Source of the DNA: Acidobacteriota bacterium
GTDB taxonomy: Bacteria; Desulfobacterota; Desulfovibrionia; Desulfovibrionales; Desulfovibrionaceae
Length of the DNA stretch: 37,287 bases
Direction of reading: 5' to 3'
Assembly: GCA_046567015.1 (NCBI GenBank)
Contig: JBKICS010000402.1
Span: 5,641-42,927 of the forward strand
Part shown: positions 15,414 through 29,746 of the stretch, piece by piece
Position numbering within the stretch: the first letter of the stretch is position 1
How the letters are laid out: each line of letters begins with the position of its first letter
Program-made: the position numbers and the translations under genes
The notes under the pieces: generated by a model
Database searches by the model: none
The model's input: the letters and a program-made list of their open reading frames with translations, nothing else
What the model was told of the DNA's origin: nothing

Positions 15414-16457
15414 TCAGCCAACCCGCAGCCGCGCCTTCCCGTCCTCTTCCGCGACGACCCGCCCAATGACCGCCGCCAGATCGCCGGCTTCCTCCAGCAT
15501 CTCTTGCGCCGCCGCAACCTTGCCCTCGGGCACGGCCAGCACCAGCCCGCCGGAAGTCTGGGCGTCGAACACCAGATCGTAGCGGATGGGGTCCAGCCCC
15601 GCCGCCACGGACACGGCCCCGGCGCAGAAGCGTTTGTTGGCGAAACTGCCCGCCGGCAGCAGGCCATAGCCGGCCAGTTCCACCGCCTCGGGCAGGAAGG
15701 GTATGTCGGCCAGCCGCAGCTCGACCGCCACCTTCGAGGCTGCCGCCATCTCCAGCACATGGCCGCCCAGGCCAAAGCCGGTCACGTCGGTTGCCGCCTT
15801 GAGGTTCAACTCCCGGATCACCCGGCCGCCGGTGGCATTCAAACGTCCGGCCCAGCGGTAGAGCAAGTTTTCCAGCGCGATCTTGTCGCCGAAATCGCCC
15901 TTGATGGCCGTGGAGATGACCCCGGTCCCCAGTGGCTTGGTCAAAAGAAGCACGTCGCCGGGCCGCAGTCCCGTATTGGAGGCGAAGCCGTCGGCATCGA
16001 CCAGCCCGGACACGGCCAGGCCGTACTTGATCTCCTTGTCCTCGACGCTGTGCCCGCCGGCCGGCACGGCCCCGGCTTCCAGCACCGCATCCAGCCCGCC
16101 GCGCAGGATCTCGCCCAAAATGGCGGTATCCATGGTCTTGGCCGGGAAACAGACAATGTTCATGGCGCAAAGCGGTGTGCCGCCCATGGCGTAGACGTCG
16201 GAGAGGGCATTGACCGCGGCGATGCGTCCGAACTTGTAGGGATCGTTGACGATGGGCGTGAAGAAGTCCACCGTCTGCACCAGCCCTTGGCCGCCGGGAA
16301 GCCGCACGATGGCGGCGTCCTCGTTGACTCCCTGGCCGGTGAGCAGACGCGGATCGGAAACAGGGGGCAGGCCCCGCAAGATGGCCTCCAGGTCCCCTGG
16401 GGCGATCTTGGCCGCTCAGCCGGCGGCGGTGACGGTCTTGACCAGTTCGATGGTCAT
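15414..16457 (-). CDS. selD: Selenide, water dikinase SelD (selenoprotein, Sec14), 347 aa
   Basis: ATG 16457 after GAGGAG gives MTIELVKTVTAAG-TGA(16418-16416)-AAKIAPGDL, the U/C-x-x-K active site; then EDAA, TVDFFTPIVNDP, NALSDVYAMGG, GGHS, TDVTGFGL, DAQTSGGL. Confidence 0.95.
16380..16407 (-). promoter_or_regulatory. Bacterial SECIS-like hairpin of selD
   Basis: mRNA GAU-C-GCC-CCAGG [GGA] CCUGG-A-GGC-C-AUC; the loop G lies 21 nt after UGA. Confidence 0.75.
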
Positions 16458-26991: not shown

Positions 26992-27047
26992 GCGGCGACC
27001 CGCGCCTGGATGGTTCCACTGTCCGGGTGCGGGTCGCCGCTTGTTTT
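26992..27047 (+). terminator. Long hairpin with T-tract, probable typA terminator
   Basis: GCGGCGACCCGC / GCGGGTCGCCGC, extendable inward with G-U pairs, followed by TTGTTTT. Confidence 0.65.
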
Positions 27048-27178: not shown

Positions 27179-28753
27179 ATGAGCAACGGTATGAACAGAC
27201 ACCTGCCCCTGCCCGGTCCCCTGGCTGTCGCCGTGCGTTATCTGGTCGTGGTTGTCCTGCTGACCGCCTACGGAGGGCAGGTCTGACCGTTCATGGAGGC
27301 CGTGCCCCCCGTGCGCCTGGGGGCCATGCTTGCCGTTTCCTTCGCCGTGGCCCTGCTCCTGCGGGGCTTGGCCACGCGTCCCGTCGTCCTGACCGTGCCG
27401 CCCGGAGACCAGCCCACCCGGCAGTTCCTGCTGGAGATGGGGGCCTGTCTCGTGGCTGGAACCTGTGCGGGCCTTCTCATGGAGGCCTCCATCGGCTTTC
27501 TTTGGGTGTCCGGCTGGAAGCTGGTGCTCGGGTCCATGGTCGCCGGATTCTATCTGGGCCTTGAGGGGGCACTGCTGCGACTTCGCGCCGTGGTGCTCGG
27601 GGCCGGGGAGGGCGGCGGCTTTCCCCTTGGCCGGCCGCTTCGCCTGCGCAGCCTGTCCCGGCGGTTTCTGCTCATGGCCGCCGCCGCCGCCTTTCTGCTC
27701 CTGGGGATTTTCGGCCTGATCTGGGCCGGCGACGTGTCCTGGCTGTCCTCCCTGGACCGGGAGCCGATGGTCTTGGCCGAGGCTAGGCGTTCCGTCATCC
27801 TGGAGATCGCCTTTGTCGTGGCCGTGCTGTTGGCCGGGCTGTCCCGGTTGATCCTGCTGTATGCCGCCAATCTGAAACTCCTGTTCGGCAGCATCACCCA
27901 GGGGCTGGCCCGGGTGCGCCAGGGCGACCTGACGGTGCGTCTGCCCGTGGCCACCTCCGACGAGTTCGGGCTCATCGCCGCCGAGGCCAACGCCATGATC
28001 GAGGGGTTGTCCCAGCGGGTGGCCTTGCTCGATGCGCTCAAAGTGGCCGAGGACGTGCAGCGCAATCTGCTGCCGTCCGCGCCGCCGCGCATCGCCGGCC
28101 TCGATATCGCCGCCTCGAGCGATTACTGCGACGAAACCGGCGGCGATTATTTCGATTTTATCCAGACCGGACCGTCCACCACCGTGGTGGTGGTGGGGGA
28201 TGTGGCCGGGCACGGCGTGGGGCCGGCGTTGCTTATGGCCTCGGCCCGGGCCACGGTGCGCATGGCCGCCGCCATGTACGCCGATCCCGGGGCCGTGGTC
28301 AGCGCCGTCAATTCCCGGGTGGCCGAGGACGTCTACGGCACCGGACGGTTCCTGACCTTTTTCTATCTGGAGATCGATGCCGCAGCCCGGCGGCTGCGCT
28401 GGGTCCGGGCCGGCCACGATCCGGCCATGGTGGTTCCGGCCGGCCAGGGCCTGACGTTCGAACTGGCCGGCGGCGGTCCGCCCCTAGGCGTCGTGGAGGG
28501 CTACCGCTATACGTCCAGTTCGCGCTCCTGGCCCGACGGCTGCCTGGTGTTCATCGGCACCGACGGCATCTGGGAGCGGCGGGGCGGCGACGACAGTATG
28601 TTCGGCAAGGGCCGGCTCCTCGACATCCTGCGCCGAAACGCCGCCCAACCGGCCGACCGGATCCTGGAGGCCGTGACCCGCGACCTGCAAGCCTTTGCCA
28701 AGGACCGTCCCCCGGAGGACGACGTCACCATGGTGGCCATCCGTTTTCCCTGA
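27179..28753 (+). CDS. Membrane HAMP + PP2C/SpoIIE (RsbU-like) phosphatase; candidate selenoprotein (in-frame TGA 27284-27286)
   Basis: PP2C motifs VQRNLLP, GGDYFD, GDVAGHG, RAGH, TDGIWE, DDVT; HAMP motif GDLTVRLPVATSDEFG; multiple TM helices. In-frame ATGs at 27179/27191 give RYLVVVVLLTAYGGQV*PFME. Conservative start is 27293. Confidence 0.8.
27301..27328 (+). promoter_or_regulatory. Candidate SECIS hairpin downstream of the phosphatase TGA
   Basis: CGUG-C-CCCCC [GUGCGCCU] GGGGG-C-CAUG; the loop starts with G 25 nt after UGA. Confidence 0.5.
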
Positions 28754-28807: not shown

Positions 28808-29746
28808 ATGATCAGGCCATCATCCATGAAATCCCGCATCGTCGACGTCGCCATCAATGTTTTCGGCAAGCCCGCCCAGACCGCCCTGGCCCTGGTCTCG
28901 CTGCTCGCCCACAGCGGCCGCTTCATCGACCGGATCTATTTCAACGAAGAGCCCGACTCGCTCAACGCGGTCTTTGCCCATGCCGACATCCTGGCCGCCC
29001 TGGGCGACCGGGTCGTCCACCACCGGCCGGCGTTCATGAACTGGCGCTACGCCGTTGACGAGTCGCGCCTGGGCGACCCGACCTACCGCCACGCCCTGCG
29101 CTACCAGTACGCCTTCGAGCGCACCGACAAGCGCTATCTGCTGCTGATCCACAACGACTGTGAATTTACCGGCGACGTGGTTGGCCTGCTCCTGGCCGGC
29201 CTCGGCAGCCAGGCCGGAGCCGGTGAGATCGGGCAGTGCTGGTTGTGCCCGGCCAAAATGCTCGGCCGCTGCGGACCGGGGCGCTACCAGGACTACCGGC
29301 CGGATTTCGCCGAGCTGGCCGCGCTCTATGCCGCCGTGGACCCGGCGGTCTATCGCCGCAGGTATTTGGACGAGCCGACCGAGGCCCTGCGCCGCCGGCC
29401 CTGGCCCCTGCCCGAATGCCGGCTCAACGAATTCTGCTGCCTGCTGCGCATGGACCTCGTGCGGCCGGCCACCTGCCCAATCGGCCCGGCCCGGCCGTTC
29501 GGGGCCTACGTCGACGTCGGCAACCCCGAAACCGGCAACGGCATCCTGGACATCGGCGTGGCCTGGTTTGGCGACATGGTCCACCTGGGGCATGGCTTCG
29601 CCCATGTGCCGCTTAACGCCTGCGTGCGCCACGTCGGGGGGCACAAGGCCCTTTTCGCCCCGGATACCTACGTCAGCCGTGAAGAAGAAGCCCTGACCAT
29701 CTTGCACGACAAGTACGGCGGACACATCCCGCGTCCGCCAGCCTGA
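28808..29746 (+). CDS. Hypothetical protein, possible divergent GT-A-fold glycosyltransferase
   Basis: VDVAINVFGKP...ALVSLL start and YLLLIHND strand resemble GT2 topology; Cys-rich segment CWLCPAKMLGRC; host-like codons. ATG 28826 is an alternative start. Confidence 0.6.
   Translation: MIRPSSMKSRIVDVAINVFGKPAQTALALVSLLAHSGRFIDRIYFNEEPDSLNAVFAHADILAALGDRVVHHRPAFMNWRYAVDESRLGDPTYRHALRYQYAFERTDKRYLLLIHNDCEFTGDVVGLLLAGLGSQAGAGEIGQCWLCPAKMLGRCGPGRYQDYRPDFAELAALYAAVDPAVYRRRYLDEPTEALRRRPWPLPECRLNEFCCLLRMDLVRPATCPIGPARPFGAYVDVGNPETGNGILDIGVAWFGDMVHLGHGFAHVPLNACVRHVGGHKALFAPDTYVSREEEALTILHDKYGGHIPRPPA

What the first reader, a model, noticed from the sequence alone, without database searches (positions are those of the whole stretch)
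27179..28753. Candidate new signalling selenoprotein: membrane HAMP-PP2C phosphatase with Sec in its sensor region
Seen: upstream of the tracked ORF (27293) the same frame is open back to ATG 27179/27191 except for one TGA (27284-27286), reading MNRHLPLPGPLAVAVRYLVVVVLLTAYGGQV-*-PFMEAV. The extension has host-like codons and encodes a clean TM helix with the TGA at its end. A hairpin follows (4 bp, C-C mismatch, 5 G-C pairs, 8-nt loop starting with G at +25), fitting bacterial SECIS geometry and echoing the selD hairpin here. The GGAGG near ATG 27293 is 16 nt away, a poor spacing. From recall, unverified: related membrane phosphatases/cyclases carry YGGxVCP with Cys at this spot. Inference: a Sec-based redox or metal sensor controlling an RsbU-like phosphatase, perhaps pairing with Cys in GACLVAGTC. 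Most known bacterial selenoproteins are redox enzymes, so a Sec-gated signalling phosphatase would be unusual.
Basis: partly seen in the sequence, partly recalled or inferred. Interest (0 to 1): 0.9.

Follow-up and report, generated by a model that had tools for sequence, protein, structure and literature searches.

The report
Selenocysteine in a membrane sensor phosphatase
An apparent stop codon near the start of this membrane sensor gene is kept in over a hundred related genes exactly where other relatives have cysteine, so it is very likely read as the rare amino acid selenocysteine, which would put selenium in the sensing part of a signalling protein, likely to bind a metal ion or similar small signal.

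Summary
Confirmed. The frame is open from ATG 27191 to 28753 except TGA 27284-27286. Read through, it gives a MASE10 (PF20970)-HAMP-PP2C protein; the MASE10 match spans the TGA. 11 of 12 full-length relatives keep the TGA and the twelfth has TGT. A GTDB pattern scan gave 119 loci, 111 confirmed as MASE10, with phosphatase or cyclase outputs. Cys fills the column in 112 of 115 database proteins that span it. Synonymous codons are frozen in the downstream hairpin, the genome has selA, selB, selD and tRNA-Sec, and ATG 27293 is kept in only 2 of 11 genus copies. Sec insertion is about 95% likely but not shown by experiment. Pairing with GACLVAGTC is not supported. The signal is unknown; I favour a selenolate metal-binding site over a redox switch. 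MASE10 is absent from the 119-family catalogue of May 2026, and RefSeq copies are annotated short. Five earlier notes of this scan report the same family.

The parts
27191..28753 (+). Full coding sequence, 520 aa with TGA read as Sec (MASE10-HAMP-PP2C); 524 aa if ATG 27179 is used
   Evidence: ATG 27191 in 11 of 11 genus copies
27218..27283 (+). Predicted helix 1 (residues 10-31 from ATG 27191), missing from annotations that start after the TGA
   Evidence: AlphaFold2 model, mean pLDDT 92.7; coding signature
27284..27286 (+). In-frame TGA, likely Sec (YGGQV-U-PF), at the near-invariant Cys column of MASE10
27301..27328 (+). Bacterial SECIS-type hairpin; core stem 27306-27310 with 27319-27323, loop 27311-27318 starting with G
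   Evidence: fits my coding of the published bSECIS constraints, -21.0 kcal/mol, 24-nt spacing; frozen codons; consensus fold
27239..27814 (+). MASE10 membrane sensor domain (Pfam PF20970, residues 21-212 from ATG 27179, model positions 2-186 of 186)
   Evidence: E 1.5e-21, 77.6 bits, cut-off 27
27890..28012 (+). HAMP domain (PF00672)
   Evidence: E 4.1e-06; HAMP structures among VIA matches, Z about 8
28139..28750 (+). PP2C/SpoIIE phosphatase domain with GGDYFD (D323), GDVAGHG (D341), GTDG (D462) and EDDVT (D514/D515)
   Evidence: PF07228 E 8.2e-45; motif positions; PDB sequence matches 6k4e, 3ke6
26993..27047 (+). Terminator-like hairpin after typA, so the gene likely has its own promoter
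   Evidence: 20 pairs, T-rich tail; typA
15414..16457 (-). selD with its own in-frame TGA (16418-16416) and SECIS-type hairpin; part of the Sec machinery, not of the sensor gene

Best explanation
This gene keeps a TGA at the one near-invariant cysteine column of a MASE10 sensor domain, followed by a conserved hairpin, and is very likely translated with selenocysteine there into a six-helix membrane receptor whose selenolate likely binds a metal ion or similar small signal at the outer membrane face and, through its HAMP domain, would switch a PP2C phosphatase. Shown: the TGA, its conservation, the Cys/TGA column, the domain order, intact PP2C motifs, Sec machinery in the genome. Inferred with high confidence: SelB/SECIS-directed Sec insertion, start at ATG 27191. 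Predicted: U36 ends helix 1; with six helices and a cytoplasmic HAMP it faces the periplasm; the dimer core is helices 5-6 plus HAMP. Inferred with modest confidence (about 0.45): U36 acts as an anionic ligand together with conserved D185 and E209 (W188, S111, K114 nearby), and binding shifts helices 5-6, HAMP and phosphatase activity on a STAS anti-sigma antagonist (partner switching, as for RsbU-type enzymes; established knowledge, target not identified).
For: TGA at the same codon in 11 of 12 full-length matches outside G000, TGT in the 12th. In a draw of 401 genomes of the phylum, 12 MASE10 matches: 8 TGA, 4 TGT/TGC, all at this codon. 111 of 119 pattern hits confirmed by a profile of the part downstream of the pattern; of 68 Sec rows aligned, 53 PP2C and 15 cyclase by motif. 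Among the best 150 database representatives 112 C, 2 S, 1 D, and 35 that begin after the site. SECIS model met by 98 of 120 TGA stretches against 523 of 1200 synonymous recodings. In the 85-member PPV group: CCC 61/62, CCC 81/82, GTG 74/74, GGG 80/83 against background 0.37, 0.37, 0.41, 0.23, while codons +2, +4, +5, +13..+18 vary freely. Three sequence groups use three different hairpins in the same window, one with pair changes on both sides. A clade with Asp (GAT) at the site, nearest to Sec rows on the tree, has lost the loop GTG in 4 of 4 distinct sequences. selA in 49 of 50 TGA genomes, and the one without has tRNA-Sec. TGA is the commonest stop here (261 of 627 long frames) and tRNA-Sec is the only UCA tRNA of 30 found. 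For the ligand idea: no conserved second Cys, D185 in 134 of 138 and E209 in 126 of 138 rows; Asp can replace Sec in intact genes. Dimer of a natural Cys paralogue (L028): score 0.61, best of 3 controls 0.00; the mark was reached by 20 of 30 proteins solved as pairs of one chain and 1 of 23 solved as single chains; runs agree in at least 84% of contacts, pLDDT at least 76; named interface is residues 137-269 (helices 5-6, HAMP); HAMP dimers are solved, so the pass may be from likeness. G000 has 5 STAS matches over the cut-off and 4 RsbW-like matches, three of them side by side.
Against: No proteomic, 75Se or reporter data. The hairpin alone is not beyond chance, and 44% of recoded controls and 2 of 5 Cys genes also pass my SECIS filter; 22 of 120 TGA stretches fail it (the cyclase examples printed have a longer loop). 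selA is in 371 of 401 genomes of the phylum, so co-occurrence tests little; Cys forms also sit in selA genomes. Relatives are not independent, so the codon p-values overstate. 5 homologous TGA loci among the 114 have an early downstream stop (L060, L076, L099, L103, L120). ATG sits three codons after the TGA in 46 of 120, so a shorter product cannot be excluded there. No coordinates were available to me: the closeness of U36 to D185/E209 is inferred, not measured. No conserved neighbouring target gene within 2.5 kb.
Confidence: 0.9

Rival explanations
1. Same selenoprotein, but U36 is a redox or covalent switch: it is oxidised, persulfidated or joined to a periplasmic thiol protein or small thiol, and that change sets phosphatase activity.
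For: [quoted passage not shown]
Against: No conserved CxxU/UxxC motif or second Cys; the window has Ser at that position; 24 of 70 Cys rows have no other Cys in the membrane region; an Asp clade keeps an intact gene. The Cys is not among the named dimer-interface residues, which the tool says is no evidence that it does not touch.
Confidence: 0.35
2. Sec is inserted but does no sensing of its own: it is a Cys equivalent with a structural or ligand-packing role, and the UGA mainly makes synthesis of the receptor depend on selenium supply.
For: Cys, Sec, Asp and Ser forms all exist with the same architecture; at least 6 changes of state on the tree.
Against: Cys/Sec is held in 112 of 115 spanning proteins and the costly UGA plus hairpin is kept across several families and two phyla, which argues for chemistry at this atom.
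Confidence: 0.15
3. The TGA is a true stop (pseudogene, or a short leader peptide plus a five-helix protein from ATG 27293), or is read as Cys/Trp without SelB.
For: Public annotations start after the TGA; ATG at +3 in 46 of 120 TGA genes; hairpin z-score not significant. SECIS-dependent Cys insertion by non-canonical tRNAs in some deltaproteobacteria is recalled, not checked.
Against: ATG at +3 in only 2 of 11 genus copies; Pfam MASE10 begins 15 residues before the TGA; the upstream helix is under purifying selection; the stop is always TGA, never TAA/TAG, in the family searches that did not require it; Cys, not Trp, fills the column; only tRNA-Sec reads UGA among 30 tRNAs found in a 67% complete genome.
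Confidence: 0.05

Closest known systems
MASE10 sensor proteins (Pfam PF20970; Galperin and Chou, bioRxiv 10.1101/2021.11.05.467447), e.g. Vibrio cholerae VC1295
   Same: Six-TM MASE10 followed by HAMP and an HD-GYP, cyclase or PP2C output; conserved Cys, Ser, Trp in periplasmic loops; ligand unknown (passages). VC1295 is an active c-di-GMP phosphodiesterase (passages of PMC4212101).
   Different: Here the conserved Cys codon is TGA with a SECIS-type hairpin.
Bacterial selenoproteins of the 2026 catalogue (PMC13188914, Table 1, 119 families)
   Same: UGA followed by a stem-loop with G at the loop start 16-37 nt away, Cys homologues, Sec machinery (section 5).
   Different: No MASE10, HAMP, PP2C, cyclase or other membrane signal-transduction family is listed (section 7 read whole); membrane entries are transporters.
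Peroxiredoxin-PP2C fusion from Global Ocean Sampling data (PMC2398784)
   Same: A selenoprotein domain joined to a PP2C-type phosphatase (passage).
   Different: There the selenoprotein part is a peroxiredoxin; here Sec lies in an integral membrane sensor that signals through HAMP and is also found with cyclases.
RsbU/SpoIIE-type HAMP-PP2C phosphatases such as SiaA
   Same: PP2C domain with intact motifs; best NCBIfam match SiaA, 47 bits; PDB matches 6k4e and 3ke6.
   Different: Far below the SiaA cut-off (700 bits) and only over the phosphatase; different sensor; no target gene beside it.
[quoted passage not shown]
   Same: Extracytoplasmic cysteine chemistry controls a cytoplasmic signalling enzyme across the membrane (abstract).
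   Different: CSS uses two Cys in a periplasmic domain and a disulfide; MASE10 has one Cys/Sec at a helix end and no conserved partner.

Membership tests
Bacterial selenoprotein | In-frame UGA aligned with Cys in homologues | tested here: met
   (112 C of 115 spanning proteins)
Bacterial selenoprotein | UGA conserved in other genomes | tested here: met
   (111 of 119 pattern hits confirmed)
Bacterial selenoprotein | bSECIS directly downstream | tested here: met
   my coding of the published constraints, not bSECISearch itself: window passes; 98 of 120 against 523 of 1200 controls; frozen codons. No Rfam family matches
Bacterial selenoprotein | selA, selB, selC, selD in the genome | tested here: met
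   selB is split over two contigs
Bacterial selenoprotein | Selenium shown in the protein | not testable with these tools
   needs MS or 75Se labelling
MASE10 (PF20970) | Profile match over the curated cut-off | tested here: met
   77.6 bits, cut-off 27, positions 2-186 of 186
MASE10 (PF20970) | Six membrane helices followed by HAMP | tested here: met
   model helices 10-31, 40-67, 71-101, 105-140, 155-187, 192-243 and HAMP; membrane position inferred from hydrophobicity
PP2C/SpoIIE phosphatase | Metal-binding Asp motifs present | tested here: met
   D323, D341, D462, D514/D515 in GGDYFD, GDVAGHG, GTDG, EDDVT; motif roles recalled
PP2C/SpoIIE phosphatase | Dephosphorylates a STAS anti-sigma antagonist | not testable with these tools
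   STAS and RsbW-like genes exist elsewhere in G000; target not identified
SiaA (NF038263) | Score over the NCBIfam cut-off | tested here: not met
   47.3 bits against 700
Thiol-disulfide redox selenoproteins (CxxU/UxxC) | Conserved second Cys near or paired with Sec | tested here: not met

The most novel reading that the evidence does not exclude
MASE10 receptors of sulfate-reducing bacteria form the first family of selenocysteine-gated transmembrane receptors: one selenolate at the outer end of helix 1 captures a soft metal or sulfur species and switches exchangeable outputs (PP2C phosphatase, adenylate/guanylate cyclase), and Sec arose or was lost several times with a different SECIS in each branch.
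Probability: 0.55. Interest if true: 0.88.

Novelty: new variant of a known kind. Interest (0 to 1): 0.72.

Why it matters
If right, it adds a signalling receptor class to a selenoprotein catalogue made of redox enzymes, transporters and metal-binding proteins, and it points to the sensing atom of MASE10, a domain whose ligand is unknown. The natural U, C, D and S series makes the chemistry directly testable. It also corrects annotation: RefSeq copies such as WP_327194906.1 and WP_328591080.1 (486 aa) have the length of a start just after the TGA and would lack helix 1 and the key residue; about 220 GTDB stretches hold the narrow TGA pattern by the tool's estimate. Within this scan the family has already been reported five times, so this locus is a further member, not a first sighting.

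Tried and rejected
Partner Cys in GACLVAGTC: rejected by conservation. Start at 27293: rejected for the genus. Whole-genome recoding of TGA: rejected. Lipoprotein signal (Cys after a hydrophobic helix): considered and dropped because GQV-C does not fit the lipobox consensus, which is recalled. Viral relatives: none. Fold search: no Foldseek match with E <= 0.001; VIA top Z 8.6 on generic helical bundles, only HAMP recognisable; this says nothing on fold novelty. Expression: no RNA holder listed. Longer fused forms: the search returned only unrelated cyclases. A cross-phylum test (Cys forms in genomes without Sec machinery) could not be built: the draw centred on G442 fell back into the same genomes as the window's phylum, and the phylum of G441 gave 1 of 17, a TGA form. 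G442 lacked selA but has selB and tRNA-Sec. Neighbourhood: no partner common to most of 92 loci. No sigma-70-type promoter match. One selD translation was in the wrong frame and was not used. Literature searches without a report of a Sec-MASE10 or Sec-HAMP receptor. Haft and Tolstoy 2025 (PMC12013261) is not held; only its families as listed in the review's table were seen. BSepDB's family list (Table S2) was cut from the stored supplement; its main text has no such term; deep-Sep text and supplements have none. Rows dropped: 5 chance pattern hits (L057, L058, L062, L066, L107); L086 left out of alignment A2; only 50 of the 114 homologous pattern loci were tested for selA and tRNA-Sec.

Full report
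Observation. The frame from ATG 27179 to 28753 has one internal stop, TGA 27284-27286. The hairpin alone is no more stable than shuffled sequence (z 0.28, -0.84, -0.83). Pfam gives MASE10 at residues 21-212 (E 1.5e-21, model positions 2-186 of 186), which spans the TGA at residue 36, then HAMP and SpoIIE. NCBIfam of June 2026 has no model over its cut-off. The closest named proteins are from Solidesulfovibrio.

The TGA is conserved. Of 40 relatives searched, 10 of 24 same-genus genomes and one genome of another family hold full-length matches, 12 in all outside the window's genome; 11 have TGA at this codon and one paralogue has TGT. In a draw of 401 genomes of the phylum the MASE10 profile, which does not ask for a stop, found 12 matches in 11 genomes: 8 with TGA and 4 with TGT/TGC at the same codon. 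A DNA pattern that requires the TGA gave 119 loci from 35 of 64 parts of GTDB, about 220 estimated in all. A profile of the part downstream of the pattern confirmed 111 of 119 at E < 1e-5; three more are plain homologues with short downstream frames and five are chance hits. This scan cannot give a TGA-to-Cys ratio. Of the 68 Sec rows aligned, 53 have PP2C and 15 cyclase outputs by motif. One TGA form lies in another phylum.

The column is Cys elsewhere. Among the best 150 of 489 database representatives, 115 span the site: 112 Cys, 2 Ser, 1 Asp; 35 begin after it. Named copies from Solidesulfovibrio in RefSeq and GenBank are 477-488 aa (15 of 35 members of the largest cluster were listed), the length expected for a start after the TGA. 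The upstream helix is coding (differences by codon position 27/26/105). ATG 27191 is kept in 11 of 11 genus copies and ATG 27293 in 2 of 11. Across 120 TGA genes the first in-frame ATG at least 15 codons upstream lies 21-22 codons before the TGA in 96, and codon +3 is ATG in 46.

The SECIS. I coded the published constraints (section 5 of PMC13188914). The window passes; 98 of 120 distinct TGA stretches pass, against 523 of 1200 synonymous recodings and 2 of 5 Cys genes, so the filter is loose. The sharper sign is codon freezing: in the 85-member group that holds the window, codons +7, +8, +9 and +12 are CCC 61/62, CCC 81/82, GTG 74/74 and GGG 80/83 (background 0.37, 0.37, 0.41, 0.23), while neighbouring codons vary (kin are not independent). 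Two other groups (11 and 24 members) freeze other codons and fold other hairpins in the same window; the 11-member group has a 7-pair stem kept in 11 of 11 with changed pair types. A small clade with GAT (Asp) at the site lies nearest to Sec rows and has lost the loop GTG in 4 of 4 distinct sequences; it is one lineage.

Machinery. The genome has selA, selB (split over two contigs), selD with its own TGA in this window, and tRNA-Sec. TGA ends 261 of 627 long coding-like frames, and tRNA-Sec is the only UCA tRNA among 30 found (the genome is 67% complete). Of 50 TGA genomes tested, 49 have selA and 37 tRNA-Sec; the one without selA has tRNA-Sec. As selA is in 371 of 401 genomes of the phylum, this is necessary but weak support.

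Anatomy and mechanism. AlphaFold2 on residues 1-287 from ATG 27191 (138 rows, Sec modelled as Cys) gives mean pLDDT 92.7, six long helices and HAMP, with the site at the end of helix 10-31. With HAMP in the cytoplasm and six crossings the site faces the periplasm (inference), in line with the conserved periplasmic-loop Cys named by Galperin and Chou. No solved fold matches the sensor clearly. A dimer model of the natural Cys paralogue L028 scored 0.61 against a best control of 0.00 (mark reached by 20 of 30 solved pairs and 1 of 23 single chains; contacts agree at least 84%, pLDDT at least 76; the pass may come from likeness to solved HAMP dimers); the named interface is helices 5-6 and HAMP. 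The conserved Asp, Trp and Glu of helices 5-6 are not named in it, which fits, but does not show, that they face the helix 1-4 bundle. No second Cys is conserved; C90 and C96 of GACLVAGTC are not. D185 (134 of 138) and E209 (126 of 138) are. I therefore favour a site in which the selenolate and carboxylates bind a metal or similar cation (about 0.45), over a redox or covalent switch (0.35) and a passive Cys equivalent (0.15). Asp in place of Sec keeps charge and metal binding but not redox chemistry, though that clade may sense something else. The PP2C motifs are intact, and STAS and RsbW-like genes lie elsewhere in the genome; no target is encoded next to the gene. The overall confidence of 0.9 is for the selenoprotein receptor; the ligand step is much less sure.

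What is known. MASE10 with HD-GYP, cyclase or PP2C outputs was defined in bioRxiv 10.1101/2021.11.05.467447 (passages seen; no 'selen' in the main text; supplements closed). The review PMC13188914 lists 119 prokaryotic selenoprotein families (sections 5 and 7 read whole); none is MASE10, HAMP, PP2C or cyclase. deep-Sep (PMC12013277; section 7, term searches of text and supplements) and BSepDB (PMC13326102; passages, supplement cut before the family list) show no such entry. Haft and Tolstoy 2025 could not be read. The nearest precedent is a peroxiredoxin-PP2C fusion (PMC2398784, passage). VC1295 activity is from passages of PMC4212101 and PMC11420891; CSS phosphodiesterases from an abstract. 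Eight searches found no report of a Sec-MASE10 receptor. Five earlier AI notes of this scan reach the same reading in other genomes; they are not independent evidence, and they make this a repeat within the scan.

Verdict. A real, conserved feature; very likely a selenoprotein; a new variant of the MASE10 receptor family that the catalogues I could read do not list. Signal unknown. Interest 0.72.

Noticed in passing
P0043, P0252; P0065, P0079: Cys-form MASE10 also occurs with histidine kinase domains (PF00512, PF02518), an output not among the three classes named in the MASE10 description I read; the 845-aa forms carry further domains that I did not identify.
   Followed up: partly
L171-L176; P0014, P0017, P0115: A clade with Asp (GAT) at the Sec site and loss of the following Pro, nearest to Sec rows, with a decayed SECIS: a natural Sec-to-Asp change.
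   Followed up: yes
window 27281-27283 and homologues: The Val codon just before the TGA is GTC in 81 of 85 and 20 of 24 genes (background 0.34), outside the hairpin; it is also GTC in 3 of 5 Cys genes. Unexplained; it may be a 5' context effect on read-through.
   Followed up: no
window 15414-16457 (-): selD is itself a selenoprotein gene (TGA 16418-16416, U-A-A-K) with a G-first-loop hairpin, about 11 kb from the sensor gene.
   Followed up: partly
window 28808-29746 (+): 312-aa ORF after the sensor gene, kept there in several genus copies; no Pfam or NCBIfam match; Atlas look-alikes are hypothetical proteins, and one cluster has Glycos_transf_2 on 41% of its members.
   Followed up: partly
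L060, L076, L099, L103, L120: Homologous TGA loci with an early stop downstream (frameshift, pseudogene or assembly error).
   Followed up: no
L146 / G442: The record title says Hyphomicrobiales, but its phylum draw returned the same genomes as the window's phylum; the label may be wrong or the bin mixed.
   Followed up: partly
loci L037-L183: Recurrent neighbours of Sec-MASE10 genes in subsets: one frame in 21 of 92 loci that looks like queA and an ABC-transporter-like frame in 19 of 92 (names recalled from the sequence, not from a call); typA in the window's genus.
   Followed up: no
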